DNA from: Alphaproteobacteria bacterium
GTDB taxonomy: Bacteria > Pseudomonadota > Alphaproteobacteria > GM7ARS4 > G965262615
Direction: 5' to 3'
Assembly (NCBI GenBank): GCA_965262615.1
Contig: OZ253545.1
Coordinates: forward strand, 352,001-416,000
DNA: 64,000 nucleotides
Position 1 is the first letter of the stretch; every line of letters starts with the position of its first letter. A program made the position numbers and the translations under genes. Below are positions 35,031-50,471 of the stretch, piece by piece. The notes under the pieces are model-generated. The model was not told the DNA's origin and made no database searches. It worked only from the letters and a program-made list of their open reading frames with translations.

Positions 35031-37814
35031 CTAAAAAATAGAAACAGGTTTAGGCATTCTCGTATTGCTGAGCACTGCCACCGAGACATCAATCAGACCC
35101 TTTGCCGGTTCGCCTTTTTCATTGAGAATTCTAAACAACGCCGCTCTCCCTTGCATGCTTACCGTGAAAGGCTCATTGTACCATGTCCAGTTTTCGCCAT
35201 TGTGAATGCGCGTCACTTTAGCGCCGATGACCGCTCGTTTGCTTTCCGGTTCTATTTGTGGGGTTTCAAGAGCAATCAAGCCCGGACGGATGGGCCATTG
35301 TTGCGATGTATCATTGGTGGTGTTCAAACTTTTGTATTGTCTCGTTGTGATGTTCTTATCCAGTGCAAACACAATATCGCTTATGGTCAGCGTGGGAATA
35401 GAGTCATCTGTGACCGCATCGGTGATGGAGACCCGAACTTTGACGGAAAAACGACGCGTCGTGATGGCAGCGAAGGGATCTTTATAAACTGTGCTATTAT
35501 CACCATGGACGCTATAGCTGACCCGATAATTGGCATGGGAAAAAAATGCAAAACTGTAATACATTTCCAAAGCAAGATAGAAAGTCATTTCTTTGCCGAG
35601 ATCGAATGTCTCTGTTTCAAATTCAAAATTGCGCGCCAAACCGGCATAGCCTCCGATGGTGCTCGCCAGTTGACTGATGCCATTGTCTAAATCGCCGATG
35701 GTCTTATCTGAGCCAGTCTCTAATTGACCCTTTTGATTGAGAAAACATTTTTTAAAAGACCCTTTCCAGTTATTTGCTTGGGTGCTGTAGGAAAAGTCTA
35801 AATCACTTGTTTTGGAATAAGGAATCGTATGACGAATCGTTGTGGGTTCGGATAAAGCACTGCCGAAAGAGACGCTTTGGACGCGAAAAAAATAATGACC
35901 AAACGAAGGTGTTGAAATATCCAGAATAGTGTTCTTGGCATAGGGGAAAAGAGTTTCCATTTTGTTTAGATTCTTTCCGTAAGACACGCGAAAGTGTCTG
36001 TAATTCAAAGGATTTCTGACATCCCATGATAAGCGCAAAGTGGAGGAATTGATCTTTGTGACGCGCAGATTGGTGGGTTTGGGAGGAATGGCATCAAAAA
36101 CGGCATCATGGATGAAGACAATGCTCCAGTCGCTCATTTTGCCAAAAACATTCCCAGAGCGCAGGCGGAATTCATATTTAACCAGCTGTCCATAGTGAGA
36201 AATCAGAGCTGGGTCAATGGTGACATAGGTTTCGGTGAGTGCGCCATCAATGGTGAGGGACTGCCATGCTGTCGATCTTTTTTGGCGATAGTTCAATTCA
36301 TAATGGCGCACAGAGTCCGATCCATCGGCTTCCCATTGCACTAAGATGCGGTAGATGTACTTGCCGTTGGGGAATTGCTGGCGATACTGAATTCCTGAAT
36401 AAATGCTGACGCCACTGGGCGGGCGCAGTAAGGGACGGCGCGGCAACTGGCTATTGGGAGCGAGATCGCGACTGGAAGGCTCACCCAGATTCCAATCATA
36501 AATCGCCGCGGCATACTCACGCAGCAGCAGCGTGATGCCGCCGCCCATATCAATGCGCCAAGAAATGACGCGAAACAACTTATCCTTGTATCCCAATTGG
36601 GCGATGGTGACCTTCACCACATCCCACACGGCGATGGTGAGCGCGCTCAATTGGGCGGGAAATTCAATCATGGTGGATTGGCGCGCCTCTTCAAGGAAAA
36701 TTTTTGCCAAGTGGCGCGCTTCGGTTTCATCCGTGGTGGCGGGCAGTTCAATGTTGCGGGCGATACGGTCGCCACCATCTTGCGATTCATACATGTGATT
36801 GAGAACCATCGGGAACTCACACGCCTCCCAGTTGGCATCCTTATTGATAAAAGTGCCCCGCACCGCATTGAACAGTTCCGCTCGTGAGGGGCGAGGGGTC
36901 AATTTGATGGGGGCGCGCAGGTCATTTTCTGTCAGCCTGCCCACAGGCGTTGTGGCGACCCCCACATGCAGACGATACTTGCCATTGGTATAGACCAATG
37001 TGCCCGCACAGGATGTCAGCAAGTCTTCCAGAATGTTGGCACAGGAATCTTGCAAAATCACTTCGGTGTTGAGGCGATAGCGTTTGCGCCGCAATTGCTG
37101 GCGATTGATCACAATTTTTTCATCACAACTGTTGGCTGCCGCCTTCCAATAATTCCAATCAATCTCTGAGTCGCGCGCCATGCCACCATCGCTATGACGC
37201 AAGTAAGCCAATATGCATAACGCCGGATTATCACTCCATTTTATTTTTTGATCGCGAGGGTCATACACTTTCATCCCTTTGACATTCATCGTGATGGTGG
37301 GAATGCCGCGTGTCCAAATATTGGCATCCCATTCCACCCGTGCATACACATAGCAAATGCCATGTCCTCTGTGCGAGGTGCTCCAATCGGGGCATGCGGC
37401 AATCAAGTTTGTTGCGGGTTGATTGTTGTCGCCACTGAAAAATTCGGTGCGCACTTTATTTTTGATGGCATCGTCTGTGGCGTTGTAATCATCAAATTTA
37501 ATATTGCTCACCGCATGGCAGGCATGTCCCGCCAGAGCGATGACAAGGTGCAGGTATTTTTTATTGTGTCCCGAACTGTCGGCAAAGATGAGCACGCCTC
37601 CTGTGTTGATTTCACCGAAAACCATGCGTTGCGGCTCTGCGGATGCTCGCACATTATGCTTGCGTGTTTGTGCCGCTTGGTTGAGATTGACATTGCGCTG
37701 CTTTGAGCGAATCAAACCAAAAGAGACAATATCCAGCGTTTTGGAGACAGCCTTTGTCGTAAAACGCAGAGCCTTCTTGACCACTTTTTTGATGCCGCCG
37801 ATAAACCCGCCCAT
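35031..37814 (-). CDS. Tail tip / host-specificity J-like protein with FN3-like domains
   Basis: VKGMKVYDPR, WSDNPALCILAYL, FNAVRGTF and LREYAAAIYDW motifs; last gene of the tail module. Confidence 0.85.
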   Translation of the reverse strand: MGGFIGGIKKVVKKALRFTTKAVSKTLDIVSFGLIRSKQRNVNLNQAAQTRKHNVRASAEPQRMVFGEINTGGVLIFADSSGHNKKYLHLVIALAGHACHAVSNIKFDDYNATDDAIKNKVRTEFFSGDNNQPATNLIAACPDWSTSHRGHGICYVYARVEWDANIWTRGIPTITMNVKGMKVYDPRDQKIKWSDNPALCILAYLRHSDGGMARDSEIDWNYWKAAANSCDEKIVINRQQLRRKRYRLNTEVILQDSCANILEDLLTSCAGTLVYTNGKYRLHVGVATTPVGRLTENDLRAPIKLTPRPSRAELFNAVRGTFINKDANWEACEFPMVLNHMYESQDGGDRIARNIELPATTDETEARHLAKIFLEEARQSTMIEFPAQLSALTIAVWDVVKVTIAQLGYKDKLFRVISWRIDMGGGITLLLREYAAAIYDWNLGEPSSRDLAPNSQLPRRPLLRPPSGVSIYSGIQYRQQFPNGKYIYRILVQWEADGSDSVRHYELNYRQKRSTAWQSLTIDGALTETYVTIDPALISHYGQLVKYEFRLRSGNVFGKMSDWSIVFIHDAVFDAIPPKPTNLRVTKINSSTLRLSWDVRNPLNYRHFRVSYGKNLNKMETLFPYAKNTILDISTPSFGHYFFRVQSVSFGSALSEPTTIRHTIPYSKTSDLDFSYSTQANNWKGSFKKCFLNQKGQLETGSDKTIGDLDNGISQLASTIGGYAGLARNFEFETETFDLGKEMTFYLALEMYYSFAFFSHANYRVSYSVHGDNSTVYKDPFAAITTRRFSVKVRVSITDAVTDDSIPTLTISDIVFALDKNITTRQYKSLNTTNDTSQQWPIRPGLIALETPQIEPESKRAVIGAKVTRIHNGENWTWYNEPFTVSMQGRAALFRILNEKGEPAKGLIDVSVAVLSNTRMPKPVSIF

Positions 37815-38281
37815 TACACTCTCCACCCCATAAACGCACGGTCAATAGAAAATGACGCAAGCCCCCCCAAAGACAGAGCCTTGACAAAAACACCGCTTAA
37901 ATCCACCACCCCCACAATGGGCTGTCCAGCCGAGCCGCGAACGGAATACGAATGCACCAGAGCAATATCCCCGCGCTGCAAAAAAGAAGGCGATATTTTC
38001 TCAAAGTCTTTTAAGATCAGCGACAGTGCCCGCGGCAAAAAATGACGGTGGTCGTCATCATTTTCCTCGCGCAACAGAGCCTTCATCACATAATGAGATT
38101 TTTTGGCACTGGCGTAGGAAGGAACATTTCTCATGGGATTGTGATTGGTCATGGCTTTGATGGCACGGCTTGCGAAGTGACAGCAATCGCTTGTGCCAAA
38201 AACAAATGACTGTCCTTCCATGTGGGAAAAATAGTCATTGAGCCGTTGCTCCCAGTCGGTGAGGCGGGTGTGGGTGCTCAT
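37814..38281 (-). CDS. Tail-associated NlpC/P60-like (DUF6950-type) protein
   Basis: DWEQRL, FVFGTSDCCHF, QRGDIAL, ends WRV; position before J. Confidence 0.75.
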   Translation of the reverse strand: MSTHTRLTDWEQRLNDYFSHMEGQSFVFGTSDCCHFASRAIKAMTNHNPMRNVPSYASAKKSHYVMKALLREENDDDHRHFLPRALSLILKDFEKISPSFLQRGDIALVHSYSVRGSAGQPIVGVVDLSGVFVKALSLGGLASFSIDRAFMGWRV

Positions 38282-38874
38282 CACGCGCTGCCCCATTCAA
38301 TTTCTTGATGGGCGGTGCGCGTGACAAAAGAAAAAAACCGATCACTGCCATCGGTCGCCACATGGCTCTCGGAAGTGTAGCGTTTGATGCGAGGATATTC
38401 CCAGTCGGCAAGCAAATTTTTCAGCGTCAAAGAAATAGAGGCATCTTCGCCAAGAGATAGCGACATATTATCCATCCGACCCTGAAACAACAGCAGAGGG
38501 TCTTGAACCAATTGATGGTCGTCATCAAAAAAAACGATAAAAATCTTGCCATTGCGTCCTTGATAATGCTCTTGCAACGCCAAGGAAATCAGATGAGAAG
38601 GAATGCCACTCAATTGCAATTGCACACTGTAGGGACGAATTTCCGCTCCTTCTTCAAAAGAGGAGACCTCAAGCAAATCTCCCACCGCCGTGAAAATTTC
38701 CTTTTGATTGTCGTCATTGCTGTCAAAGGCGATATCGGAGGAGGCATCAGTGAGACGAATATGTCCCGAGAGAAAGTGCAAATCCACAAGAATGATGGGA
38801 CCAATCACCACGGAGGATTGGCTGGCTTGTTGCATCTGTTGCGAGATATGGCGAGAGGATTGTTGCGTCTGCAT
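38281..38874 (-). CDS. Tail hub / baseplate-type protein
   Basis: AVGDLLEVS..EE, LSGIP, LFQGRMD and RYT..H...DRFF.FV motifs; position in module. Confidence 0.7.
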   Translation of the reverse strand: MQTQQSSRHISQQMQQASQSSVVIGPIILVDLHFLSGHIRLTDASSDIAFDSNDDNQKEIFTAVGDLLEVSSFEEGAEIRPYSVQLQLSGIPSHLISLALQEHYQGRNGKIFIVFFDDDHQLVQDPLLLFQGRMDNMSLSLGEDASISLTLKNLLADWEYPRIKRYTSESHVATDGSDRFFSFVTRTAHQEIEWGSA

Positions 38875-39536
38875 CAGGGATAGCTCTCTATGAGTTCAAA
38901 TTGCATGGAGGCTTGATTCATTTTTTCAAAAGAGAATCGGCTTTGTTTGTCGTTGGCGAGACGCATGACGCAAAAACAATCATGGGTGATGATGCGACTG
39001 CCATCACGGGGCGGCAGGCGCAGCACAGGCGTGATGGCAAGATGAGCGACACCGTCAGACATCACAACGGCATCGCTGGTGAGGCTATGGAGTGCGTTGT
39101 GTCCATTGGCGAGCAAAATCGTGATGGTGTCTCCTTTTTTCAAGACGGTGCTGTCGCCATTTTTTTGCTGCCACCCTCGTGTGACAAGCTGCGAGCCCTT
39201 TTGATTCGCTCCCTTGATGACGGGCGCGCCACTGGCGTGTCCTTTGGGAGTTTTGCCATGAGGCGGAAAAAAGAGAAACTTCCTCTGAGGGCCATTGAGG
39301 GACAAAATAAATGCCGTCACCTGACGCACCATCTCTTCGCCATGAAGAGCATAGCTCACATGAGCGCGCCAGTGAGAATTGGGATTGGCGAGCAGTTGGG
39401 TGTAGCCCGTGAGGGGAGAGGTGTAGCTTTGGGTGTGTGTCACCAGTTCCCATTGCATGCGGGTGGGGGCTGGATTGGTCATCCAGCGGCGCAGCGAAGG
39501 AATGGTGGAGATGCTGATGCCTGAGTTTTGCGTCAT
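38874..39536 (-). CDS. Distal tail protein-like
   Basis: SPLTG..Q, W.A, F..SLNG and I.P.LR motifs; directly after tape measure. Confidence 0.65.
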   Translation of the reverse strand: MTQNSGISISTIPSLRRWMTNPAPTRMQWELVTHTQSYTSPLTGYTQLLANPNSHWRAHVSYALHGEEMVRQVTAFILSLNGPQRKFLFFPPHGKTPKGHASGAPVIKGANQKGSQLVTRGWQQKNGDSTVLKKGDTITILLANGHNALHSLTSDAVVMSDGVAHLAITPVLRLPPRDGSRIITHDCFCVMRLANDKQSRFSFEKMNQASMQFELIESYP

Positions 39537-39592: not shown

Positions 39593-40534
39593 TTAGCGTC
39601 TTCCCATGGCGCGCGCATAGGAGCCACCCTCAAAAGAGCGGTGTGCGACTTCATCGGCGCCGGCGCGAGCGGCTTTTTGCACAATGCGCGGCTCTTCCTC
39701 CCGCAAGACGGCGCGAATGCGCTCTTCAACGCCTGAATCGGCGCCGCGCGCATCAATGTGATTGTTAATCACCACCGATGCTGACCCCCCGCCGCCACCG
39801 GCGGCAACGCCCAGCTCCCCCGAGGACAAACGGCGCAGCGGCATGATGGCTTCAGGTCCCGCCTCCCCCATCATGCCAAGCGGAAAGAGGGTGGATGAGC
39901 CCACAACGCCGCCGCGAGCAAAAGGAATCACCTCGCCGTGTTCAAACACGCCTCCTTTGGCAAAAAAGAAATTGGAGATTGTGTCCACAATGCTACCGAA
40001 ACCGCCGCCACCTAAAAAATTACCGATAAGACTCCCGCCGCCGCCTGATCCAACGCCAAACAAACTGCCCAATCCACCGCTCAGAGAACCAAAGAGCGCA
40101 CTAATGCCGCCGTCAATCAGTTTATCAAAAAGATTGCCGCCCAAGCCCTTCAAAATGCCGCCGATGTCCGGCGCATTCCATTCTCCCTTCAAAATGCCAT
40201 CCTTCAGGGTGTCTTTGAGCTCCGTGCCGATACTTTCGGTCGCCTCTTCAACTTCGTCTGAAAAATCTTTCGGCTTCAGCGCAATATCTGAGACAAAGTC
40301 ATTAAATCCTTTTTCAATGGCATTGGCACTGGCATCAAGGCTTTTGATTAGGCTCTCTCCGAATGAATCGCTGCCTTTGGCGGTTTTCTTGCTGCTTTCA
40401 GCAAGCTTGTCACTGCATTCTTCAAGTTTTTTGCTGTTGGCGGCGATGCGGTCAAAGGCGCGTTGCATTTCCTCCTGCTGTTCGGGGGAATAGTTAAAGA
40501 CGGCGGTGGTGAGTCTTCCTATGGGGGCTTCCAT
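39593..40534 (-). CDS. Short tail tape measure protein (313 aa)
   Basis: Helical N-terminus, Gly-rich segment, FAKGG..PFARGGVV..MGEAGPEAIMPLRR motif. Confidence 0.85.
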   Translation of the reverse strand: MEAPIGRLTTAVFNYSPEQQEEMQRAFDRIAANSKKLEECSDKLAESSKKTAKGSDSFGESLIKSLDASANAIEKGFNDFVSDIALKPKDFSDEVEEATESIGTELKDTLKDGILKGEWNAPDIGGILKGLGGNLFDKLIDGGISALFGSLSGGLGSLFGVGSGGGGSLIGNFLGGGGFGSIVDTISNFFFAKGGVFEHGEVIPFARGGVVGSSTLFPLGMMGEAGPEAIMPLRRLSSGELGVAAGGGGGSASVVINNHIDARGADSGVEERIRAVLREEEPRIVQKAARAGADEVAHRSFEGGSYARAMGRR

Positions 40535-40564: not shown

Positions 40565-41380
40565 ATGATGATGTGGATGCGTGTGATTGTTTATGGAACG
40601 GCGTTATCTTTCCTGTTGGCGAGTGATGGCTCGGCGCGTCAAAACAGCGATCTGGAAATAGCGCAGCTGTGCGGCATTGCTCACGAAATCATACCATTGT
40701 TGTCTTTGAGACATTGCAAGAAAATCGTAAAAACCGAGAGGGGAAGGAATTGTGACAGTGATTATTTAGGTTGCTATGAAGTATCGTTGCGTCATGCTGA
40801 AAGTGATTCTTTTGTCACTTCGAATAACAATGAGAAGAATGTTTATTATGAGTTACGGATAGAGGAAGAGAATTGTTACGGCGGTTACGGTACTTATTTA
40901 GGCTGTTATGAAGTATCATTGCGTCATGCTGAAAGTGATTCTTTTGTCACTTCGAATAACAATGAGAAGAATGTTTATGATGAGTTACGGATAGCGGATG
41001 CTCATTGTCGTGGCACTTATTTAGGCTGTTATGAAGTGTCATTGCGTCATGCTGAGAGTGATTCTTTTGTCACTTTGAATCGCAATGATAAGAATATTTA
41101 TTATGAGTTACGGATAGCGGATGCGGGTTGTCGTGGTGCTTATTTGGGTTGTTATGAAGTATCATTGCGTCATGCTGAGAGTGATTCTTTTGTCACTTTG
41201 AATCGCAATGATAAGAATATTTATTATGAGTTACGGATAGCGGATGCGCGTTGTCGCGGTGCTTATTTGGGCTGTTATGAAGTATCATTGCGTCATGCTG
41301 AGAGTGATTCTTTTGTCACTTTGAATCGCAATGATAAGAATATTTATTATGAATTTCGGGTCTCCCCATCGGGCGGGTAA
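40565..41380 (+). CDS. Secreted 41-aa Cys-repeat protein, paralog 1 (5 repeats)
   Basis: Signal peptide MMMWMRVIVYGTALSFLLASDGSA; unit CYEVSLRHAESDSFVTLNRNDKNIYYELRIADAGCRGAYLG. Confidence 0.85.
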   Translation: MMMWMRVIVYGTALSFLLASDGSARQNSDLEIAQLCGIAHEIIPLLSLRHCKKIVKTERGRNCDSDYLGCYEVSLRHAESDSFVTSNNNEKNVYYELRIEEENCYGGYGTYLGCYEVSLRHAESDSFVTSNNNEKNVYDELRIADAHCRGTYLGCYEVSLRHAESDSFVTLNRNDKNIYYELRIADAGCRGAYLGCYEVSLRHAESDSFVTLNRNDKNIYYELRIADARCRGAYLGCYEVSLRHAESDSFVTLNRNDKNIYYEFRVSPSGG

Positions 41381-41382
41381 CT

Positions 41383-42189
41383 ATGATGATGTGGATGCGT
41401 GGAATTGTTTATGGAACGGCATTATCTTTCCTGTTGGTGAGTGATGGCTCGGCGCGCCAAAAAAGCGATCAAGCAACGGTGCAGCTGTGCCAGATTATTC
41501 ACGACATCATGCCGTTGTTGTCTGTGAGACATTGCAAGAAAATCTTACAAACCGAGAGAGGGAGGCTTTGTGACAGTGATTATTTAGGCTGCTATGATGT
41601 ATCGCTGCTTTATTCTGAAGACAGTGTTTTTTATGGATTGGGTCGCGATGCTCGGGATATTTATTACCAACTTCGGATAGAAGATGGTCGTTGTTTCGGT
41701 GATTATTTAGGCTGTTATGAAGTGTCGTTGCTTTATTCTGAGGACAGTGTTTTTTATGGATTGGGTCGCGATGCTCGGGATATTTACTATCAACTTCGGA
41801 TAGAAGACGGTCGCTGTTTCGGTGATTATTTAGGCTGTTATGAAGTGTCGTTGCTTTATTCTGAGGACAGTGTTTTTTATGGATTGGGTCGCGATGCTCG
41901 GGATATTTACTATCAACTTCGGATAGAAGATGGTCGCTGTTTCGGTGATTATTTAGGCTGTTATGAAGTGTCATTGCTTTATTCTGAGGACAGTGTTTTT
42001 TATGGATTGGGTCGCGATGCTCGGGATATTTACTATCAACTTCGGATAGAGGACGGTCGCTGTTTCGGTGCTTATTTAGGCTGTTATGAAGTGTCGTTGC
42101 TTTATTCTGAGGACAGTGTTTTTTATGGATTGGGTCGCGATGCTCGGGATATTTACTATCAATTTCGGGTCTCCCCATCAGGCGGGTAA
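41383..42189 (+). CDS. Secreted 41-aa Cys-repeat protein, paralog 2 (5 repeats)
   Basis: Unit CYEVSLLYSEDSVFYGLGRDARDIYYQLRIEDGRCFGDYLG, 123-nt period. Confidence 0.85.
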   Translation: MMMWMRGIVYGTALSFLLVSDGSARQKSDQATVQLCQIIHDIMPLLSVRHCKKILQTERGRLCDSDYLGCYDVSLLYSEDSVFYGLGRDARDIYYQLRIEDGRCFGDYLGCYEVSLLYSEDSVFYGLGRDARDIYYQLRIEDGRCFGDYLGCYEVSLLYSEDSVFYGLGRDARDIYYQLRIEDGRCFGDYLGCYEVSLLYSEDSVFYGLGRDARDIYYQLRIEDGRCFGAYLGCYEVSLLYSEDSVFYGLGRDARDIYYQFRVSPSGG

Positions 42190-42191
42190 CT

Positions 42192-42998: not shown

Positions 42999-43000
42999 CT

Positions 43001-43804: not shown

Positions 43805-43806
43805 CT

Positions 43807-44733
43807 ATGATGATGTGGATGCGTGTGATTGTTTATGGAACGGCGTTATCTTTCCTGCTGGTGAGTGATGTCTCGGCGCGCTCTCAAGAGACAGTGCTGT
43901 GCCACATTGTTCACAGCGTCATGCCATTGTTGTCTGTGGACAATTGCAAGAAAACCTTACAAACCAAAAGAGGAAGACGTTGTTCCAGTGACCGTTATTT
44001 AGGCTTTTATGATGTATCGTTGCTTTATTCTGCGGATGATATTTTTCGTGGATTGGGTGACGATCATCGGGATATTTACTATCAACTTCGGATAGAAGAT
44101 GATGGCTGTGCCAGTGACCGTTATTTAGGTTTTTATGATGTATCGTTGCTTTATTCTGCGGATGATATTTTTCGTGGATTGGGTGACGATCATCGAGATA
44201 TTTATTACCAACTTCGGATAAAAGATGGTGGTTGTTCCAGTGACCGTTATTTAAGCTGTTATGATGTATCGTTGCTTTATTCTGCGGATGATATTTTTCG
44301 TGGATTGGGTGACGATGCTCGGGATATTTACTATCAACTTCGGATAGAAGACGGTCGCTGTTCCAGTGCTTATTTAGGCTGTTATGATGTATCGTTGCTT
44401 TATTCTGCGGATGATATTTTTCGTGGATTGGGTGACGATGCTCGGGATATTTACTATCAACTTCGGATAGAAGATGGTCGCTGTTCCAGTGCTTATTTAG
44501 GCTGTTATGATGTGTCGTTGCTTTATTCTGCGGATGATATTTTTCGTGGATTGGGTGACGATGCTCGGGATATTTACTATCAACTTCGGATAGAAGATGG
44601 TCGCTGTTCCAGTGCTTATTTAGGCTGTTATGATGTGTCGTTGCTTTATTCTGCGGATGATATTTTTCGTGGATTGGGTGACGATGCTCGGGATATTTAC
44701 TATCAATTCCGTGTCTCCTCATCAGGCTGGTAA
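43807..44733 (+). CDS. Secreted 41-aa Cys-repeat protein, paralog 5 (6 repeats)
   Basis: Unit CYDVSLLYSADDIFRGLGDDARDIYYQLRIEDGRCSSAYLG; the first two units have F in place of C. Confidence 0.85.
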   Translation: MMMWMRVIVYGTALSFLLVSDVSARSQETVLCHIVHSVMPLLSVDNCKKTLQTKRGRRCSSDRYLGFYDVSLLYSADDIFRGLGDDHRDIYYQLRIEDDGCASDRYLGFYDVSLLYSADDIFRGLGDDHRDIYYQLRIKDGGCSSDRYLSCYDVSLLYSADDIFRGLGDDARDIYYQLRIEDGRCSSAYLGCYDVSLLYSADDIFRGLGDDARDIYYQLRIEDGRCSSAYLGCYDVSLLYSADDIFRGLGDDARDIYYQLRIEDGRCSSAYLGCYDVSLLYSADDIFRGLGDDARDIYYQFRVSSSGW

Positions 44734-44735
44734 CT

Positions 44736-45539
44736 ATGATGATGTGGATGCGTGGAATTGTTTATGGAACGGCGTTATCTTTCCTGTTGGTGAGTGATGG
44801 CTCGGCGCGATTCGATGGTCGTCAAGAGACGGTGCTGTGCAAGATTGTTCACGAAATCATGCCGTTGCTGCCTGTGACCAATTGTAAGAAAATCTTACAA
44901 TCTAAAAGGGGAAGTGAATGTTCCAGTGCTTATTTAGGCTGTTATGAAGTGTCGTTGCTTTTTGCTGATAGCCGTTCCTTTTATACTTGGGATAGCAAGG
45001 AAGGGAATATTTATTATGAGTTACGGATAGCCGATTCGGATTGTGTTGGTGCTTATTTAGGTTGTTATGAGGTGTCACTGCTTTTTGCTGATAGCCGTTC
45101 CTTTTATACTTGGGATAGCAAGGAAGGGAATATTTATTATGAGTTACGGATAGCCGATTCGGATTGTGTTGGTGCTTATTTAGGCTGTTATGAGGTGTCG
45201 TTGCTTTTTGCTGATAGCCGTTCCTTTTATACTTGGGATAGCAAGAAAGGGAATATTTATTATGAGTTACGGGTAGCTGATTCGGATTGTGTTGGTGCTT
45301 ATTTGGGTTGTTATGAGGTGTCACTGCTTTTTGCTGATAGCCGTTCCTTTTATACTTGGGATAGCAAGGAAGGGAATATTTATTATGAGTTACGGATAGC
45401 CGATTCGGACTGTAGTGGTGCTTATTTAGGTTGCTATGAGGTTTCATTGCTTCCTGCGAAGAGTCGTTCTTTTTATACTTGGGATAGCAATGAGGGGAAT
45501 ATTTATTATGAGTTTCGGGTCAACCCATCGGGCGGGTAA
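44736..45539 (+). CDS. Secreted 41-aa Cys-repeat protein, paralog 6 (5 repeats)
   Basis: Unit CYEVSLLFADSRSFYTWDSKEGNIYYELRIADSDCVGAYLG. Confidence 0.85.
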   Translation: MMMWMRGIVYGTALSFLLVSDGSARFDGRQETVLCKIVHEIMPLLPVTNCKKILQSKRGSECSSAYLGCYEVSLLFADSRSFYTWDSKEGNIYYELRIADSDCVGAYLGCYEVSLLFADSRSFYTWDSKEGNIYYELRIADSDCVGAYLGCYEVSLLFADSRSFYTWDSKKGNIYYELRVADSDCVGAYLGCYEVSLLFADSRSFYTWDSKEGNIYYELRIADSDCSGAYLGCYEVSLLPAKSRSFYTWDSNEGNIYYEFRVNPSGG

Positions 45540-45544
45540 TTATT

Positions 45545-45865
45545 TTATTTTTGTTGTTTGAGACACTCGCGCTCCAGAATTTGAATTTTGTGAAAATCCC
45601 GTGGCGAGATATGCAGATGTGCGAGGCGTGCGGCAATGGACAGGGCGTTGTAATCCAGCCCAATCCACTGTCCTGAGGGAGCGATGCGCCACTGGGTGAT
45701 GACCAGCAAAAAAAGCCGCAACGCGCGCTCATTGGATGGCAACAGTGTGAATTCGTGCGGTGCGTGGGCATCAATCACCTCTTGCGGTGCGCCCAGAGCC
45801 TTGAGGTCATTGTGGCGGGCAGTGCCGTCCGTCAGGAGGTGACGGACGGCACCGATGAGTTTTTT
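45545..45865 (-). CDS. Tail assembly chaperone -1 frameshift extension (DUF1799-like, lambda gpGT analogue)
   Basis: TQWRIAPSG..IGLDY and IQILERECL motifs; frame is open back to the slippery site. Confidence 0.8.
   Translation of the reverse strand, partial: KKLIGAVRHLLTDGTARHNDLKALGAPQEVIDAHAPHEFTLLPSNERALRLFLLVITQWRIAPSGQWIGLDYNALSIAARLAHLHISPRDFHKIQILERECLKQQK
45822..45865 (-). promoter_or_regulatory. Programmed -1 ribosomal frameshift signal
   Basis: A_AAA_AAC heptamer, 6-nt spacer, perfect 13-bp stem GTGCCGTCCGTCA-CCTCC-TGACGGACGGCAC. Confidence 0.85.
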
Positions 45866-46191
45866 TCAGACGCTGCTCCCGACAAGGATTCAATATAAGC
45901 TTTGAGCAATGCCGCGCGAATGTAGGGGATGTCAATCATGCGCTTTTTCCAATGGTCATCAAAGGGCAGTGGCTGGTCGTGTTCATCCACTATGTCACGC
46001 CAGCCCACAAGAACCTTGTGAAGCAAGCGCACATCGCCATTGTCGCCATCATCCACCAGCTGACGCAAAGACTGCTGTCCCATCTCCACAAAGCAGGCGG
46101 TGAATTGTTGCTGCTGGATGCCGTTTTCTGAAGGCACGCTCACCACAATGGGGCACGCAAAGCGGCGGTCAATGATGATTTTAAAGCTCAT
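45832..46191 (-). CDS. Tail assembly chaperone (gpG analogue)
   Basis: VLVGWRDIVDE...LPF motif; EKN near the C-terminus; follows the tail tube gene. Confidence 0.8.
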   Translation of the reverse strand: MSFKIIIDRRFACPIVVSVPSENGIQQQQFTACFVEMGQQSLRQLVDDGDNGDVRLLHKVLVGWRDIVDEHDQPLPFDDHWKKRMIDIPYIRAALLKAYIESLSGAASEKNSSVPSVTS

Positions 46192-46200: not shown

Positions 46201-47124
46201 CTATTGGGTGGTGATGGTGAGTTCATCATTGCCCTCATGGGGCAGCAGATGCATGTCAAATTTGAGGGTGCGAATGCCGTCTCGGTCACCGTAGCTGGGC
46301 TGTGTCAATTGAACTTTGGGCGCGCTCCATCCCACAACAGAGCCGCTTTTTGTGCCCAAAGTGAGCGAAAAAATGCCTGTGGCGGCGTTTTCCATCTTGT
46401 CAAAAAAGTTGAACGACGAGACGGACGGGTCTTTAATCTCAATGCTTCCTGTGGCGTGACGCTCCGTGATCTCCACCGATTCAGAATTCATGTAAGAGAT
46501 GAATGGCGCAGAGACTCCCATATCCAATGAGAGCGAGGCGGTGGTGACATTGCGTCCAAACAGCACCATGCTGGCGACCTCATTTTTTGACAGTGTGAGA
46601 GGCGTTTTGAAGGCACTGTAATTGGCATTGGGCAAGGATGCAGCCTCTGGAGTCTGGTAGAGTCCCCTGAAGGTGAAAGAAAGAGACGGGTAGTCGTTGG
46701 CGTTCAAAGAGGCATTGAAGGTGCCGCGCGCACCCGTGACCTTATGCAATGTGCCATCCTGATACACATAAAAAGTGAGGGAGGAAAAATGATCGGAGAT
46801 GGGCTTGTAGAAAACGGCGTTGCTGGTGCTGTTTTGCTTAAATCCGCATCCCTTGAGCAACAAAGCCCATGCGGGGGCGACATTTTTTGTTCCCGAACCG
46901 GCGGCGGTGACGGAGAACGATAATTGCACATGGCGATTGGACAGGGCGGCAAAATTGCCACCAAGCCACTGTTTGACGGCGGGCAGCTCTTTGCGTTCAG
47001 CATTGAGAGGCGATATGTCAAGATCGCTGACCTCAATGGCATTGGTGCTGGCGGACGGTGTGGCATCTCGAGCGTAAGAGCTCTCAAGGGCGGCGAGGAT
47101 GACTCGTTTTTTGGTCAGAGGCAT
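46201..47124 (-). CDS. Phage tail tube (major tail) protein
   Basis: ILAALESSY..D, LLKGCG, HKVTGARGTF, Y.DRDGI and GNDEL motifs; no sheath gene present. Confidence 0.8.
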   Translation of the reverse strand: MPLTKKRVILAALESSYARDATPSASTNAIEVSDLDISPLNAERKELPAVKQWLGGNFAALSNRHVQLSFSVTAAGSGTKNVAPAWALLLKGCGFKQNSTSNAVFYKPISDHFSSLTFYVYQDGTLHKVTGARGTFNASLNANDYPSLSFTFRGLYQTPEAASLPNANYSAFKTPLTLSKNEVASMVLFGRNVTTASLSLDMGVSAPFISYMNSESVEITERHATGSIEIKDPSVSSFNFFDKMENAATGIFSLTLGTKSGSVVGWSAPKVQLTQPSYGDRDGIRTLKFDMHLLPHEGNDELTITTQ

Positions 47125-47133: not shown

Positions 47134-47571
47134 CTAAGGTTGGATGGTTTTTTGAGTGACGAATTGATCCTCCCACCACAGAACACCTTTGCCGAATTGA
47201 ACGAGGCGTCCTTTGATAAAATCGGGGGCACTGTGGGTGTCGTCTTGCTGTTTTTTGATGAGAGGAATCAGAGCCGTGCGCGCTTTGAGCACATGAGTCA
47301 GTTGTCCCAAAGAGCCGGTGTGGCGCGGTTGTTGATGAGACGCTTGATAGCACTGCAGAATGGAAAAGCGCACAGCGATTGTTTGTGAGCCATCGGAAAA
47401 ACGGCTGCTTTTGGCATTTTCCTCAAGGGGCACCACATATGCTGCGGGCAGCTGATGGGATGGCGGGGCATCTTTTTTGTTGGCAATCATCATCACCGAG
47501 CCACTGCTGGCAAAGAGGTCGTCAGCGGTCAGTTGGGTGATGATGGATTGAAAGAAACGGCGGCTGTCCAT
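47134..47571 (-). CDS. Putative tail terminator
   Basis: LPAAYVVPL.E and G.L....GVLWW.DQF motifs; between adaptor and tube. Confidence 0.65.
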   Translation of the reverse strand: MDSRRFFQSIITQLTADDLFASSGSVMMIANKKDAPPSHQLPAAYVVPLEENAKSSRFSDGSQTIAVRFSILQCYQASHQQPRHTGSLGQLTHVLKARTALIPLIKKQQDDTHSAPDFIKGRLVQFGKGVLWWEDQFVTQKTIQP

Positions 47572-47575
47572 GATG

Positions 47576-47980
47576 CTAAAAGGAAGACAGCCGTGAGCCG
47601 CTCAATTGACGAGGATGAGCCTGCCATTTCACTTCATTGGTGTCTGTGGGTGGTTGGTTGAGATCGTAAGTGCCGTGGGCGATGTCTTCCAGCATTTGTT
47701 TGGCATCTTGATAGCGTTTGCGCACTTCGTCACTGGGGTCGGTGGTGTGAAGGCGAAAGCGCGCAATATCGCATGCCAAAATGGTGAGCAGAGGGAATGT
47801 CTCGGAGAGCGGCAGCTGATAGCGTTTGAGCAAGTAAATATTGATCTCGGCATCGGCATCCTCTAAGGCGCGCGTGACGATGCTTGAATTGATGGTGGTC
47901 TGATTGACACGGTCGGTGAGGGCAATGAGTTCATCTTGCCCAAATTTTTTCTTGAGGTCGTCCAAAGAGGCGTATGACAT
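47576..47980 (-). CDS. Mu gp36-like (DUF1320) head-tail adaptor
   Basis: MSYASLDDL, AL.DA.AEI..YL..RY.LPL, CDIARF.L and RYQDA...L..IA.G motifs. Confidence 0.85.
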   Translation of the reverse strand: MSYASLDDLKKKFGQDELIALTDRVNQTTINSSIVTRALEDADAEINIYLLKRYQLPLSETFPLLTILACDIARFRLHTTDPSDEVRKRYQDAKQMLEDIAHGTYDLNQPPTDTNEVKWQAHPRQLSGSRLSSF

Positions 47981-48038
47981 GGAAAAATCCTTGTTGGTGT
48001 GTGCCTCAGCCGTTGTGTGCGGCTGAGGCACGAGGCGG

Positions 48039-48938
48039 TTATGCGAGGCGCGGCTCTATATGAACATCCACCACATTGTGATTGACATTGGATGAGCCAT
48101 TGCTGAGTCGTTCGGCTTTGACGACCGCATAGGCGGCGGCACGCAAGGCGGGCGGAACGATGAGCAAGTTGGGCATGATATTCAAAGGACGCTCGTTGTC
48201 ACCTTTGAGGCTCATCATGGCACTCATGGCTTGATTGAAATTGTCGCTGGTGAGAGCAGCTTTTGAGCCATATGCCAGTTGCCACAATCCGTATCCTGCG
48301 GCGGCGCGTGCATCCACGCCGTAGATGTACTCTTTGCGGTAGAAGACATTATCATCGCCGTCATCATCTTTGCGCATGAGCGTGGGGGCTTTGCGAGTTT
48401 GATAGATGAGGGGTTTGATGGCGCGATGGCGATCCACGAGGAACCAAGGCGTTTTGTCACCGGTTTGCATGTTGGAGGCGGTTTTCTTTTTGCCATTGGC
48501 ATCGGTGACGGGATGACTGGTGTCAAAGAAAGGACGCCCGTCATAGCCTGTTTTGGTGAAGCCGTCATTGAGCAGGGGCCAGACGAGATCATCGGGCAGT
48601 TGAGCGGCGGCATCTCCCATGTTGGCGAACAGCAGTTTGTATGCGCCCAGTTGTTCGTCTTCAATGTCGTTGCGAGCAACGGCGAGGGTGAGTTCCCAGT
48701 CTTCGTTTTCAATGGAAAAGCCGTGTTGCGAGACTCCTCGCACCACGCGATCGCCCACCCAAGGACGCAAAGCGGGCAGATCGCCCAGCCAAGGATAGGT
48801 GTTACGCGTGGTATTAGAGGGGGCATCCATAGCCACATGGGAGTAGCTCGCCCGATGACCCTCAAAGGCTTCGGCGAAAGATTCATTGAAGCCCACATAA
48901 GCGGACTCAAGAATGTCGGGGGTGATGGTGATTGCCAT
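48039..48938 (-). CDS. Mu gpT-like major head subunit
   Basis: YPWLG.LP.LR.WVGDR, YDG.PFFDT.HP, KPLIYQ.R and YGVDAR.AAGYGLWQLAYGS motifs. Confidence 0.92.
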   Translation of the reverse strand: MAITITPDILESAYVGFNESFAEAFEGHRASYSHVAMDAPSNTTRNTYPWLGDLPALRPWVGDRVVRGVSQHGFSIENEDWELTLAVARNDIEDEQLGAYKLLFANMGDAAAQLPDDLVWPLLNDGFTKTGYDGRPFFDTSHPVTDANGKKKTASNMQTGDKTPWFLVDRHRAIKPLIYQTRKAPTLMRKDDDGDDNVFYRKEYIYGVDARAAAGYGLWQLAYGSKAALTSDNFNQAMSAMMSLKGDNERPLNIMPNLLIVPPALRAAAYAVVKAERLSNGSSNVNHNVVDVHIEPRLA

Positions 48939-48965
48939 AGTGATTAGTCTCCTTACGGTATGTGG

Positions 48966-49385
48966 TTAGTTGATGATGACCCAGACACTTTTGTTATCAT
49001 TGTCCAGAGCAAGCACTGTGCCTGCTGATTTGCGGGCATTGCTGTTGCTGTTGGTGCTGACGGTTTGGTCATCCATGGCATAGACGGTTGTGCCGATGTG
49101 TGACGGGGTGACCTTGTGGCTGTTGCTTGTGTCATTGTCAAACAGAAAGACACCTCGCTCCAAAGTGACAGTGGCATTGCCTGCGGTGGTTTGAGCATCA
49201 ATACCTGTTTGGGCGATGCCCATGATGGGGCTGTTGGCAGAAGCGTGTCCTGCCGGCACGGCATAGCCATGGCGATCAAGGGCGACCATAGCGCCGGCAT
49301 AGAGGGTGACCGATGCCGCAACAGAATAGGCAACGCTTGTGCCATCACGGCGAGCGGTCGGTTTGTCTTGGGTGAGCGCAGTCAT
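48966..49385 (-). CDS. Putative capsid cement/decoration protein
   Basis: MTALTQD..T.RRDG, LYAGAMV, YAMDDQTV, ends VWV; between protease and capsid. Confidence 0.7.
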   Translation of the reverse strand: MTALTQDKPTARRDGTSVAYSVAASVTLYAGAMVALDRHGYAVPAGHASANSPIMGIAQTGIDAQTTAGNATVTLERGVFLFDNDTSNSHKVTPSHIGTTVYAMDDQTVSTNSNSNARKSAGTVLALDNDNKSVWVIIN

Positions 49386-49403
49386 AAAGCTCTCCTTATG
49401 AGG

Positions 49404-50471
49404 TTAGAGGGTGGAAGAATCTGACGAATCACTGTCTTTGAAGCGCGCTCGCGCGGTGGCAAAACGCTGATGATCCAAATTCAGCTGGCGACAGATGGAT
49501 AGATCCGCTTCACTCAGCGCGGATTGGTGAGAAGACGAAGCATGAGAAGACGGTGTCACAACGGGGGTGAGGGTGGGCTGTCCTTGGAGAAATTGCTCAA
49601 AGCCTTCGGAATCTTGATTGTGATAGCTGATCGCCCACGAACGCAAGGACGGCGGAATTTTGCCTTTGGCAATCGCATCACTGATGCGTTGCTCGCGCGC
49701 TTGGTGGCTTGCGGTCTCTTGGGTCATGGCAAGGCTTTGTGCCAAGGATGATGCGTGGGCGGCTTGTTCGGAAATGATTTTGCTCAAATTCTCTTGCAAT
49801 GCTGACCAATCAGGATCGCCATTGGCATCGGTTTGAGTCACGCCGCTCAGTGTGAGCAATTGGGTGTAGGCATCGCGGGCGGCGGCGGTTTGTTGTTTCA
49901 GGTGAGCGATGGCATCCAAAATGGCTTGCAAGGACAATTCATCATTCTCCCTTTGAATATTGAGGCTTTGAGCAATGGCTTGTGTGGTGTCATGTGTCTG
50001 GTTATGACGGTCCACATTGAGTGCCTTGAGGGCGAGGTTCGGATTATTGGTCAAGCCGGCACGCAAAATACGAAGAATGATGCCGTCATCATCATGAAGA
50101 AAAACGGGACTCAAATAGCGGTATTCTCCTTGTTGAATGGCTTGAGCGGCTTTGGGAGTCCATTCCACATGTCCCCAGATGCCATCGTCTCGTTTTTCAA
50201 TGTCACGAATCCATCCAGCCGCAGGAGCTGCCATGCCCACACCGGGGCGAGCGGCATAATCGGTTTGATGGTCGTAATCAATCACCAAGCCTGTTTCTGA
50301 TTGGCTGGCGCGAATGACTTCATCTATGTTTTCAACATGATAGGGACCGCGTCCATCCTGCCCTGAAAAAATGCCAGACGGCAGCAAATGAACGCATGGA
50401 GGAGCTTTGCCTTCCAGCAAAACTGAATGAATTTCAAGACTCTCGGAAGAGGGATCTGTGTGGCAGCTCAT
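49404..50471 (-). CDS. Mu gpI-like prohead protease/scaffold
   Basis: DGRGPY, VIDYDHQT, APAAGWI, YRYLSPVF and AGLTNNPNL motifs. Confidence 0.92.
   Translation of the reverse strand: MSCHTDPSSESLEIHSVLLEGKAPPCVHLLPSGIFSGQDGRGPYHVENIDEVIRASQSETGLVIDYDHQTDYAARPGVGMAAPAAGWIRDIEKRDDGIWGHVEWTPKAAQAIQQGEYRYLSPVFLHDDDGIILRILRAGLTNNPNLALKALNVDRHNQTHDTTQAIAQSLNIQRENDELSLQAILDAIAHLKQQTAAARDAYTQLLTLSGVTQTDANGDPDWSALQENLSKIISEQAAHASSLAQSLAMTQETASHQAREQRISDAIAKGKIPPSLRSWAISYHNQDSEGFEQFLQGQPTLTPVVTPSSHASSSHQSALSEADLSICRQLNLDHQRFATARARFKDSDSSDSSTL

What the first reader, a model, noticed from the sequence alone, without database searches (positions are those of the whole stretch)
35031..50471. Structural-only Mu-like head plus siphovirus tail cluster: candidate novel gene-transfer-agent-like or domesticated particle
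Seen: a dozen intact, tightly coupled genes running from prohead protease to tail tip, bounded closely by host genes (eipB-like 54 bp away, tRNA-Arg 11 bp away). There is no portal, terminase, Mu transposase, repressor, integrase or lysis gene, no visible decay in the retained genes, and no att duplication. The frameshift signal is preserved and the tape measure is short. Known: RcGTA-type agents use HK97-like protease/capsid genes, not the Mu gpI/gpT pair, and some GTAs keep helper genes at other loci. Inferred: this may be an independently domesticated Mu/D3112-like module under selection, acting as a GTA, an empty particle or a tailocin-like device.
Basis: partly seen in the sequence, partly recalled or inferred. 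Interest (0 to 1): 0.82.

Follow-up and report, generated by a model that had tools for sequence, protein, structure and literature searches.

The report
Split domesticated Mu-like phage particle genes
A small sponge-associated bacterium keeps only the packaging, head and tail genes of an old Mu-like phage, split between two places on its chromosome and kept intact by selection, which makes it a candidate for a new, independently evolved gene transfer agent.

Summary

The "missing" packaging genes exist about 410 kb away. They are a Mor-like activator, a DUF2730 protein, an 80-aa gp27-like remnant, an intact TerL and a portal lacking about 100 C-terminal residues. Transposase, Mu F, Mu G, integrase, phage lysozyme and HK97 capsid were not found in the 1.54-Mb genome.

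Contigs from four public runs (three studies) bridge the same gpI/eipB junction. Of the 26 listed variants inside phage genes, 22 are synonymous, and no indel lies in a phage ORF. The truncated portal and the short tape measure recur intact in other assemblies.

This is therefore a vertically inherited, selected, structural-only element, and most likely GTA-like. Particle production and DNA transfer are untested. The absent stopper, the absent lysis genes and the interrupted operon argue for caution.

The parts
49404..50471 (-). gpI-type prohead protease/scaffold (355 aa)
   Evidence: PF10123 E 6.1e-62, matching 1-329 of 330 profile positions. 30-40% identical to the proteases of Rhodovulum phage vB_RhkS_P1 and of a MAG prophage.
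48966..49385 (-). 139-aa virion structural protein (decoration- or scaffold-like)
   Evidence: phrog_1731 E 5e-34. Same position as gp38 of vB_RhkS_P1.
48039..48938 (-). gpT major capsid protein (299 aa)
   Evidence: PF10124 E 3.6e-112. Best phage match 47.8%. Listed strain variants: 4 synonymous, 1 non-synonymous.
47576..48031 (-). gp36-type head-tail adaptor (DUF1320); likely true start at 47980
   Evidence: PF07030 E 7.8e-35, from residue 20 of the GTG-started ORF. Listed variants: 4 synonymous, 0 non-synonymous.
47134..47571 (-). 145-aa neck/tail-terminator protein, counterpart of vB_RhkS_P1 gp43
   Evidence: PF23840 E 3.6e-10. phrog_209 E 4.9e-8. gp43 of the reference phage hits the same PHROG.
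46201..47124 (-). major tail tube protein (307 aa)
   Evidence: PF18906 E 1.1e-12. phrog_290 E 1.5e-22.
45832..46191 (-). tail assembly chaperone G (119 aa)
   Evidence: phrog_569 E 2.6e-14. vB_RhkS_P1 gp45 hits the same PHROG.
45545..45865 (-). -1 frameshift extension (G-T chaperone); slippery A_AAA_AAC at 45865-45859
   Evidence: The -1 frame is open from the slip site to the stop at 45545. The 77-aa part hits phrog_680 at E 5.7e-17, as does vB_RhkS_P1 gp46.
40565..45539 (+). Inserted array of six tandem paralogous genes (267-308 aa). Each encodes a signal peptide, a 40-aa Cys-containing N-domain and 5-6 copies of a 41-aa repeat.
   Evidence: Two-nucleotide spacers between genes. Synonymous variation at invariant residues and pN/pS of 0.06-0.77. 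GC3 0.34-0.40. No family in Pfam, the 5.8-billion-protein search, the Atlas or PDB sequences. Only two fragments of the same family among 1.84 billion representatives. One of five AF2 models has pLDDT 74 and a beta-solenoid-like fold.
39593..40534 (-). short tail tape measure protein (313 aa)
   Evidence: phrog_1716 E 3e-20, matching profile positions 655-930 of 943. Six full-length variants of 300-314 aa at 77-97% identity with a conserved N-terminus. An RBS-like AGAGGA lies upstream of the ATG.
38874..39536 (-). distal tail protein (220 aa)
   Evidence: phrog_1302 E 2.4e-32.
38281..38874 (-). tail tip/hub protein (197 aa)
   Evidence: phrog_2048 E 2.6e-39.
37814..38296 (-). DUF6950 tail protein (160 aa)
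   Evidence: PF22262 E 1.1e-21. phrog_2134 E 7e-18.
35031..37826 (-). J-like central tail fibre / host-specificity protein (931 aa)
   Evidence: PF13550 and fn3. phrog_5616 E 8e-86 and phrog_31 E 4e-67. 27-31% identical to tail proteins of Roseobacter phages.
34943..35019 (+). tRNA-Arg(TCT), host boundary 11 nt from the J stop
   Evidence: ARAGORN, Rfam, sequence.
50526..51338 (-). eipB-like host gene on the same strand, 54 nt upstream of gpI. No terminator-like site lies between them.
   Evidence: PF08904 E 4.3e-20, sequence, terminator scan. Contigs of 4 of 4 runs bridge this junction.

Best explanation
This is the vertically inherited, domesticated remainder of a Mu-like (gpI/gpT-head) siphophage in a 1.54-Mb sponge- or marine-associated alphaproteobacterium. 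Only the late activator, DNA-packaging, head and tail genes survive, and they sit at two chromosomal loci about 410 kb apart.

Locus B (G000 1,514,448-1,518,077) holds:
- a Mor-like activator
- a DUF2730 protein
- an 80-aa gp27-like small-terminase remnant without the N-terminal DNA-binding part
- TerL
- a portal shortened by about 100 residues

Locus A (window 35031-50471) runs from the protease to the J-like tip, with a natively short 313-aa tape measure.

Proposed mechanism (inferred, not shown). A host-driven promoter expresses Mor, and Mor switches on both loci. gpI, gpT and the portal build proheads. TerL, with a small terminase that lacks sequence specificity, fills them headful with whatever DNA is present. 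Short siphovirus tails of about 45-50 nm are then added. Because the genes are split, no single particle can carry its own full gene set. In behaviour it would therefore be a gene transfer agent (GTA), of an origin independent of RcGTA.

The six-gene array inside the tail operon is a separate cargo insertion. It encodes secreted, fast-diversifying, probably beta-solenoid repeat proteins. These most likely act at the cell surface or toward the sponge host and are not part of the particle.
For: Shown by tool results:
1. Locus B exists. Its ORFs are intact and overlapping.
2. TerL keeps a Mu-type Walker A (KSRRIGAT here, KSRRTGLT in Mu), Walker B (LDEF) and the invariant nuclease aspartates.
3. 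The structural genes have no second copy in the genome.
4. Several families gave no match. There was no HK97 capsid, hence no RcGTA-type cluster. There was no Mu F above cut-off and no phrog_26. Only two tyrosine recombinases were found, both of Xer size. Of the 59 proteins of the nearest phage, only 7 structural or packaging proteins hit the genome.
5. All four laid runs (3 studies) cover all 30 bins, and each has a contig bridging gpI-eipB. Divergence is 0.4-7% in phage genes against 2.3-4.2% in the flanking host genes of the same run.
6. Of the 40 listed variants (642 not shown), 26 lie in phage genes: 22 synonymous and 4 non-synonymous. P is about 3e-9 against a neutral synonymous fraction of 0.28. 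Host genes gave 7:2.
7. Of the 11 listed indels, none lies inside a phage ORF as annotated. One 1-nt indel sits in the gpT/gp36 spacer.
8. A portal variant, P0006, is 403/412 identical with the same shortened C-terminus. It stands for a cluster of 14 sequences.
9. Six tape-measure variants are all full length.
10. Codon usage of all phage-derived genes lies within about 1.4 SD of the host mean.

From the literature (passages read). [quoted passage not shown] RcGTA has a 216-residue tape measure and a 49-nm tail (PMC7296036).
Against: 1. No holin or endolysin was identified. PF00959 gave nothing. The single Amidase_2 gene is far from both loci.
2. No Mu F and no Mu G/Neck1 (phrog_26) protein were found. 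The nearest phage carries both, and RcGTA uses a distinct stopper.
3. The portal lacks the C-terminal roughly 100 residues that 117 of 120 listed homologues possess (median 521 aa).
4. Calling the 80-aa protein a small terminase rests on a PHROG E-value of 9.7e-6, a Pfam hit below cut-off and gene position.
5. The tail operon is cut by 5 kb of opposite-strand genes, so the genes from the tape measure to J need their own promoter or antisense read-through. No convincing promoter was found.
6. Selection was measured on only 40 of 682 variable positions and only on 45540-50471. Locus B and the tail tip have only indirect support from intact protein variants.
7. No RNA run was available, so there is no evidence of expression, of particles or of packaged DNA.
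8. All comparison strains are close (at most about 4% in host genes). The element's age beyond this species cannot be shown, because no family-level relative is held.
Confidence: 0.5

Rival explanations
1. Non-functional prophage wreck. A Mu-like prophage lost its early region, lysis genes, F and G through deletions and one rearrangement. What remains is on its way out, and the apparent constraint reflects limited time or sampling.
For: - The break between the loci cuts inside the portal gene.
- The small terminase is only a fragment.
- F, G/Neck1 and lysis genes were not found.
- A foreign array interrupts the operon.
- Comparison strains are at most about 4% diverged in host genes.
- Only 40 of 682 variants could be inspected.
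- A related MAG locus (L012) shows what a decaying Mu-like prophage looks like, with portal and TerL in pieces.
Against: - The 22:4 synonymous to non-synonymous split in the listed variants is far from the neutral 28%.
- No indels lie in 4.9 kb of phage ORFs across four strains, one with 6.7-7.3% divergence over the chaperone and tube genes.
- Portal and tape-measure variants are intact in other assemblies.
- About 18 ORFs are intact in a genome of only 1.54 Mb.
- Codon usage is fully host-like.
Confidence: 0.2
2. The element is selected, but not for gene transfer. The particles would serve as a killing or adhesion device (PBSX-like or F-type-tailocin-like), or single proteins (for example the tail tip, or a capsid shell) have been co-opted for another role.
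For: - Constraint is seen, but nothing shows DNA packaging.
- The missing stopper and missing F could leave heads unable to hold or deliver DNA.
- In run X6 the tube and chaperone genes diverge twice as fast as the head genes (about 7% against about 3%), as expected for parts under diversifying pressure.
Against: - Head genes are as constrained as tail genes: gpT 4:1, gp36 4:0, and the 139-aa protein 3:1.
- TerL keeps all catalytic motifs.
- The portal is conserved at 98%.
- Tailocins lack head and packaging genes.
Confidence: 0.15
3. A helper-dependent or still-mobile element. The missing functions (replication or transposition, lysis, F, G) would be supplied by a co-infecting complete phage, so the loci behave like a satellite rather than a host-owned device.
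For: Phage satellites that encode their own capsid genes are known (recalled, not checked here). Transposable phages infecting sponge alphaproteobacteria are reported (PMC11410982, passages read).
Against: - No integrase, replication gene, transposase or att/Mu ends were found.
- The chromosomal junctions are fixed in 4 of 4 runs.
- The genes are split 410 kb apart.
- No relative above 48% identity was found in 50,697 phage records, and no close relative in IMG/VR.
Confidence: 0.05

Closest known systems
RcGTA-type gene transfer agents of Alphaproteobacteria (Rhodobacter capsulatus, Caulobacter)
   Same: A structural-only, phage-derived gene set with no replication or lysogeny genes and host-like codon usage. 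It is vertically inherited under purifying selection and its genes sit at more than one locus. The small-terminase candidate lacks an N-terminal DNA-binding part. The tape measure is short (313 aa here, 216 aa in RcGTA). The tail tip has a four-gene layout (distal tail, hub, small protein, large Phage-tail_3 protein)..
   Different: The head is the Mu gpI/gpT/gp29/gp28 type, not HK97. PF05065 finds nothing in the genome. The Pfam families for RcGTA g12-g14, as I recall them, did not appear among the hits of the tail-tip proteins. A Mor-type activator takes the place of GafA/CtrA control, and no CtrA-type site lies at either locus (motif recalled). No stopper and no lysis genes were found. Activity is unproven.
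Mu-like siphophages of Rhodobacterales (Rhodovulum phage vB_RhkS_P1, RS1, Rhodobacter phage RC1) and B3/D3112-type transposable phages
   Same: Same late-gene order: Mor, DUF2730, gp27, TerL, portal, [F], protease, structural protein, gpT, adaptor, phrog_209 protein, tube, G/G-T chaperones, tape measure, tip. Identities are 47% for portal, 43% for capsid and 36% for TerL.
   Different: Not found here: repressor, MuA/MuB, GemA, amidase, gp26, five small genes before TerL, F, gp35-like, phrog_26 Neck1, and the genes after J. The portal is about 100 aa shorter. The tape measure is 313 aa against 643 aa. The tail-tip genes belong to different families. The element is split over two loci.
Bartonella BaGTA and Bacillus subtilis PBSX (other domesticated head-and-tail particles)
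   Same: Independent domestications of tailed phages that package host DNA. They show that GTA-like behaviour has arisen more than once (PMC11841831 passages; PBSX recalled).
   Different: The gene families are unrelated. Those systems keep lysis genes and have demonstrated particles. BaGTA is coupled to run-off replication. None of this is seen or testable here.
Phage-borne eukaryote-interaction cargo in sponge symbionts ('Ankyphage' ankyrin proteins)
   Same: A phage-derived region in a sponge-associated bacterium carries secreted repeat proteins as cargo (bioRxiv 10.1101/608950; search listing and start of the abstract only).
   Different: The six proteins here are not ankyrins and match no known family. 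Their predicted fold is beta-solenoid-like. Their function is untested.

Membership tests
Gene transfer agent (functional class) | Phage-derived structural and packaging genes without replication, integration/transposition or lysogeny-control genes | tested here: met
   Only structural and packaging proteins of the nearest phage hit the genome (7 of 59). No DDE_2 match, though that control rang nowhere. Only two Xer-size recombinases. Locus B is flanked by yraN and ftsW/rodA; locus A by tRNA-Arg and eipB.
Gene transfer agent (functional class) | Vertical inheritance at a fixed chromosomal site with purifying selection | tested here: met
   4 of 4 runs bridge gpI-eipB. 22 synonymous to 4 non-synonymous among the 26 listed variants in phage genes. 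No indel in a phage ORF. Limits: strain-level depth only, 40 of 682 variants seen, and locus A head and proximal tail only.
Gene transfer agent (functional class) | Small terminase without a sequence-specific DNA-binding domain | tested here: inconclusive
   The 80-aa ORF just upstream of and overlapping TerL matches only the C-terminal part of gp27 families (Pfam E 0.0014, below cut-off; phrog_426 E 9.7e-6). No full gp27 occurs anywhere in the genome.
Gene transfer agent (functional class) | Particles package random host DNA and cannot carry their own full gene set | not testable with these tools
   Only an inference. The loci lie about 410 kb apart, so one head cannot hold both.
Gene transfer agent (functional class) | Release by dedicated lysis genes | tested here: not met
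   PF00959 gave no match. The phage amidase gave no tblastn hit. One Amidase_2 gene lies at 1,318,576, far from both loci. DUF2730 (the family of Mu gp25 in the record's annotation) is retained; its role is unknown here. Holins are too diverse to exclude.
RcGTA-like GTA family | HK97-type major capsid (PF05065) with its protease and portal | tested here: not met
   No PF05065 match in the genome, while the control rang in 4 genomes including Caulobacter. The capsid is PF10124 gpT.
Intact Mu-like transposable prophage | MuA/MuB transposition proteins, repressor, and a contiguous late region including F (gp30) and G | tested here: not met
   tblastn with MuA, MuB and CI of vB_RhkS_P1 gave no hit. 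PF04233 scored 14.5 bits, below cut-off. phrog_26 gave none. The late region is split.
Mu-like head module (gp28/gp29/gpI/gpT) | Terminase_6 TerL, Portal_Mu, Mu-like_Pro and Mu-like_gpT in the Mu order | tested here: met
   PF17289/PF03237, PF06074 (E 1e-96), PF10123 and PF10124. The order matches Mu and vB_RhkS_P1. The portal is C-terminally shortened.
F-type (flexible) tailocin | Tail genes only, without head or packaging genes | tested here: not met
   Capsid, protease, adaptor, portal and TerL are present, and the head genes show constraint.
Beta-solenoid secreted adhesin / functional-amyloid-like proteins (for the six array proteins) | Parallel beta-helix built of repeated rungs, exported | tested here: inconclusive
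   One of five AF2 models reached pLDDT 74 and pTM 0.78; the other four reached 25-31. Foldseek found nothing at E <= 0.001. The best VIA-align matches were the L. reuteri SRRP (Z 9.9, rmsd 3.4, 132 aligned) and the CsgA fibril (Z 9.4, rmsd 8.7). Many beta-helix proteins follow at Z 5-8, which the tool notes is near background. The signal peptide was read by eye.

The most novel reading that the evidence does not exclude
A sixth, independently evolved kind of gene transfer agent. It would be built from a Mu-type head and packaging motor and a short siphovirus tail, with its genes split between two chromosomal loci and switched on by a retained Mor-type activator. It would operate in a genome-reduced sponge symbiont, where it could supply the recombination such lineages otherwise lack. 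The element has also become the landing site for a hypervariable six-gene cassette of secreted beta-solenoid repeat proteins of an unknown family.
Probability: 0.3. Interest if true: 0.85.

Novelty: new variant of a known kind. Interest (0 to 1): 0.68.

Why it matters
All alphaproteobacterial GTAs described so far trace to the RcGTA or BaGTA lineages. Three full-text searches found no GTA derived from a Mu-like phage.

A Mu-head element with the genomic marks of domestication would be a new, independent case of the phage-to-GTA transition. Those marks are a structural-only gene set, split loci, host-like codon usage, purifying selection, a small-terminase remnant without its DNA-binding part, and a short tape measure. 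Some of the same changes recur in known GTAs.

It sits in a 1.54-Mb host-associated bacterium. That makes the question of how reduced symbiont genomes keep exchanging DNA directly testable in sponge viromes.

The inserted array adds an orphan family of secreted repeat proteins whose variable patch differs between paralogues and between strains. This is the pattern expected of molecules that face a host or a predator.

Tried and rejected
**Readings I dropped**
- My first reading was that the array had replaced the N-terminal two-thirds of a long tape measure (from the PHROG alignment to positions 655-930 of 943). I dropped it. Six variants of 300-314 aa share the same N-terminus, so the protein is natively short and the array is an insertion beside it.
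- The minus-strand ORFs inside the array (181-267 aa) I take as by-products of a stop-free repeat unit. Their translations are His/Asn/Lys-rich low complexity. The plus frame shows synonymous variation at conserved residues.

**Searches that gave nothing usable**
- Shared regulatory motif upstream of gpI, DUF2730, Mor, tape measure, rep1 and TerL: the best 16-mers matched at 10-13 of 16, no better than shuffles.
- CtrA-type TTAA-N7-TTAA and half-sites (motif recalled): none in either locus.
- The sigma-70 and terminator scans were uninformative. By eye, a TTGACA lies upstream of Mor.
- att-like repeats between the four element boundaries: only 9-13-nt matches.
- Close relatives of gpT: one locus at 46% in genome contigs, none in JGI metagenome contigs, none in IMG/VR.
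- Among 40 relatives' genomes, 3 had gpT-like hits at 37-46%. The same-order genome G002 carries a gpT-like gene in an unrelated context.
- Expression: no RNA holder was listed.
- Binding of the 80-aa protein to TerL: the complex prediction verdict was 'no answer'.
- Array proteins: the first AF2 model of the full protein had pLDDT 36. The Atlas gave no usable hit. PDB sequence search gave nothing below E 0.9. A TPR/CHAT protein, P0003 (E 2.6e-6), I judge a repeat-periodicity artefact.
- The DUF2730 codon-usage outlier was my frame error (start 14858 instead of 14857). It was corrected.
- A padloc scan was not completed.
- Supplementary files of papers were not consulted.

Full report
**What is in the window**

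The first group runs from the head to the chaperones:
- a gpI-type protease (PF10123, E 6e-62)
- a 139-aa virion protein (phrog_1731)
- the gpT capsid protein (PF10124, E 4e-112)
- a gp36 adaptor (PF07030)
- a 145-aa phrog_209/PF23840 neck protein
- a tube protein (PF18906)
- chaperone G (phrog_569)
- a -1 frame extension that hits phrog_680 at E 6e-17

The slippery heptamer A_AAA_AAC lies at 45865-45859. The -1 frame is open from there to the stop at 45545.

Downstream lie a 313-aa tape measure, a distal tail protein (phrog_1302), a phrog_2048 tail protein, a DUF6950 protein and a 931-aa J-like protein. The boundaries are as stated. tRNA-Arg ends 11 nt from the J stop, and an eipB-like gene stops 54 nt before the gpI start.

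Between the chaperone stop (45545) and the tape-measure start (40534) lie 4,975 bp on the other strand.
- GC is 0.41-0.43 and GC3 is 0.34-0.40, against a genome GC3 of 0.56 +/- 0.07.
- The stretch holds six tandem genes of 267-308 aa, separated by 2 nt.
- Each gene encodes a signal-peptide-like N-terminus, a Cys-containing 40-residue segment, and five or six copies of a 41-aa (123-bp) repeat.

The cluster is therefore not an uninterrupted operon.

**The rest of the genome**

The window is G000:C1:352001-416000 of a single-contig genome of 1,542,258 bp, 98% complete.

A search with the Mu portal family found one strong match at 1,517,007-1,518,011 (E 3e-97). That locus (L006) is compact and flanked by host genes, yraN upstream and ftsW/rodA convergent downstream. 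It holds:
- a Mor-like late activator (phrog_836, E 4e-18; likely start at 14448, behind GGAGGA)
- a 101-aa DUF2730 protein
- an 80-aa ORF whose only matches are to the C-terminal part of gp27 small-terminase families (phrog_426, E 9.7e-6; Pfam below cut-off)
- a 481-aa TerL (PF17289/PF03237)
- a 412-414-aa portal (PF06074, E 1e-96)

In the Mu order, this locus ends where locus A begins. In Mu and in the nearest phage, the portal is followed by F, in Mu also by G, and then by the protease. The two loci therefore look like one late region torn between portal and protease, with F lost.

TerL keeps its catalytic motifs. Walker A is KSRRIGAT (KSRRTGLT in Mu), Walker B is LDEF, and the nuclease aspartates are invariant in a three-way alignment.

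The portal ends about 100 residues before the ends of Mu gp29 and of the Rhodovulum phage portal. Of the 120 listed homologues, 117 are 485 aa or longer, with a median of 521.

**What is absent**

tblastn with all 59 proteins of Rhodovulum phage vB_RhkS_P1 hit only TerL, portal, protease, the structural protein, the capsid, the adaptor and the tube, plus one 28-residue chance-level match.

Family searches of the genome gave the following:

| Family searched | Result |
|---|---|
| Mu F | nothing over cut-off |
| DDE_2 transposase | none (the control also rang nowhere) |
| HK97 capsid | none |
| Tyrosine recombinases | two, both of Xer size |
| phrog_26 (Mu G/Neck1) | none |
| Full gp27 | none |
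| Phage lysozyme | none |
| Amidase_2 | one gene, far from both loci |

None of the structural genes has a second copy.

**Is it decaying or kept?**

Thirteen runs from five studies hold part of the stretch, and the named ones are sponge and marine metagenomes. I laid 45540-56700, which covers the phage head and proximal tail plus eipB, sucA and sucB, on four runs from three studies.
- All 30 bins are covered in all four runs.
- Each run has a contig bridging the gpI-eipB junction. Examples are X4 at 48820-52444 and X5 at 48057-56700 within a 44.7-kb contig.
- In run X6, divergence is 6.7-7.3% over chaperone and tube, about 3% over the head genes, and 2.3-4.2% over the host genes.
- In run X5, divergence is 2.6% in the phage part and 2.2% in the piece that runs on from gpT into the host genes.
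- Of the 11 listed indels, ten are in host genes. One is a 1-nt change in the gpT/gp36 spacer.

The tool listed 40 of 682 variable positions. Of these, 26 fall in phage genes (22 synonymous, 4 non-synonymous), 9 fall in host genes (7 synonymous, 2 non-synonymous) and 5 are intergenic. With a neutral synonymous fraction of 0.28, the chance of 22 or more out of 26 is about 3e-9.

The junction with eipB is shared by all four runs. These substitutions therefore arose after the element had lost its portal-F side, which means the structural-only element itself is under constraint.

Protein databases hold further support. A portal variant, P0006, is 403/412 identical with the same shortened end and stands for 14 sequences. 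Six tape-measure variants of 300-314 aa at 77-97% identity all share the N-terminus. Codon usage of every phage-derived gene is host-like (with the DUF2730 value corrected).

**How it most likely works**

Shown: a complete-looking minimal set for prohead assembly, DNA packaging and a short non-contractile tail. It is constrained, fixed in the chromosome and unable to move itself.

Inferred:
- Mor drives both loci.
- TerL works with a small terminase that lacks a DNA-recognition domain, and so packages host DNA without sequence preference. That feature is described as typical of GTA small terminases (PMC6854486 and PMC11841831, passages read).
- The 313-aa tape measure gives a tail of about the RcGTA size. 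RcGTA has a 216-residue tape measure and a 49-nm tail (PMC7296036, passages read).
- Because the loci are about 410 kb apart, no single particle could carry the full gene set.

Against this reading:
- No stopper or Neck1 protein, no F and no lysis genes were found.
- The portal is shortened.
- The genes from the tape measure to J are cut off from the head operon by the array, with only 30 nt between the divergent starts.
- There is no expression or particle evidence.

I put the GTA-like reading at 0.5, a selected particle with another use at 0.15, a plain wreck at 0.2 and a helper-dependent element at 0.05.

**The array**

The plus frame is coding.
- Invariant residues show synonymous codon variation.
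- pN/pS is 0.06-0.28 between units within a gene and 0.2-0.77 between genes.
- Repeats within one gene are nearly identical in protein. The genes differ from each other in a patch of about 15 residues, while a scaffold is invariant (Y-L-G-C-Y-x-V-S-L ... F ... Y-Y-x-L-R-I ... C).

The family is an orphan. Pfam gave nothing meaningful. A 5.8-billion-protein search found nothing. A profile search of 1.84 billion representatives found only two short fragments of the same family, with yet other variable patches. The Atlas and PDB sequence searches found nothing.

One of five AF2 models of the repeat region reached pLDDT 74 and pTM 0.78. It is all-beta with three strands per unit. Its best structural neighbours are beta-solenoid adhesins, curli, SufD-type helices, autotransporter passengers and tailspikes, at Z 5-10. 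The tool warns that this is close to background.

I read these genes as cargo: exported, fast-diversifying, probably beta-solenoid proteins acting at the cell surface or toward the sponge. This is inference.

**Comparison with known systems and novelty**

By gene families, the element is a Mu-like head module joined to a lambda-like tail. It is closest to the Mu-like siphophages of Rhodobacterales (36-47% identity).

It is not an intact Mu-like prophage, because the transposition, repressor, F and G genes were not found. It is not a member of the RcGTA family, because it has no HK97 capsid.

It resembles GTAs in what has been kept, what has been lost and how it evolves. Three literature searches turned up no GTA of Mu-like origin.

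I rate it a new variant of a known kind, with interest 0.68.

Noticed in passing
L006:13905-14224 (G000 1,513,905-1,514,224): A 156-nt tandem duplication (90% identical, 164-nt spacing) of the 3' end of yraN sits directly upstream of the Mor-like gene. It is followed by a TTGACA hexamer at about 14250. It may be a scar of the event that placed or trimmed locus B.
   Followed up: partly
L006:14206-14218 and L006:18151-18163: A 13-nt direct repeat (also present with one mismatch in the first yraN copy) flanks locus B on both sides. Its E-value is 0.014 in a very small search space, so it may be chance.
   Followed up: partly
window 45540-47800 versus 47800-50400: In run X6 the chaperone, tube and neck genes differ from the window by 6.7-7.3%. 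The head genes and flanking host genes differ by only 2.3-4.2%. Either the tail evolves faster or that segment has been exchanged by recombination.
   Followed up: no
window 45552-45555 (run X6 loose ends): Two different continuations leave the T-chaperone stop toward the array in one run. This suggests two co-existing strains with different array ends (table 7).
   Followed up: no
L012 (MAG contig, 2999-20536): The nearest species-representative relative of gpT (46%) sits in a Mu-like prophage whose portal and TerL are broken into several frames. It is a useful picture of real decay to set against the intact genes here.
   Followed up: partly
L015/L016 (G002:C1:1,557,500-1,558,420): A genome of the same order has a gpT-like gene (36%) directly after a 2,373-aa ORF, with no other recognisable Mu-like neighbour by BLAST. 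It is a different element.
   Followed up: partly
window 54492-54864: Depth spikes of 139 in X4 and 82 in X6, against a baseline of 10-30, occur over part of the sucB-like gene. They are probably reads from other organisms on a conserved domain.
   Followed up: no
window 34566-35019: tRNA-Pro and tRNA-Arg flank a 103-aa ORF (34654-34965) that I did not annotate. The phage tail end abuts the second tRNA, yet no integrase and no tRNA-fragment duplication was found at the other end of the cluster.
   Followed up: partly
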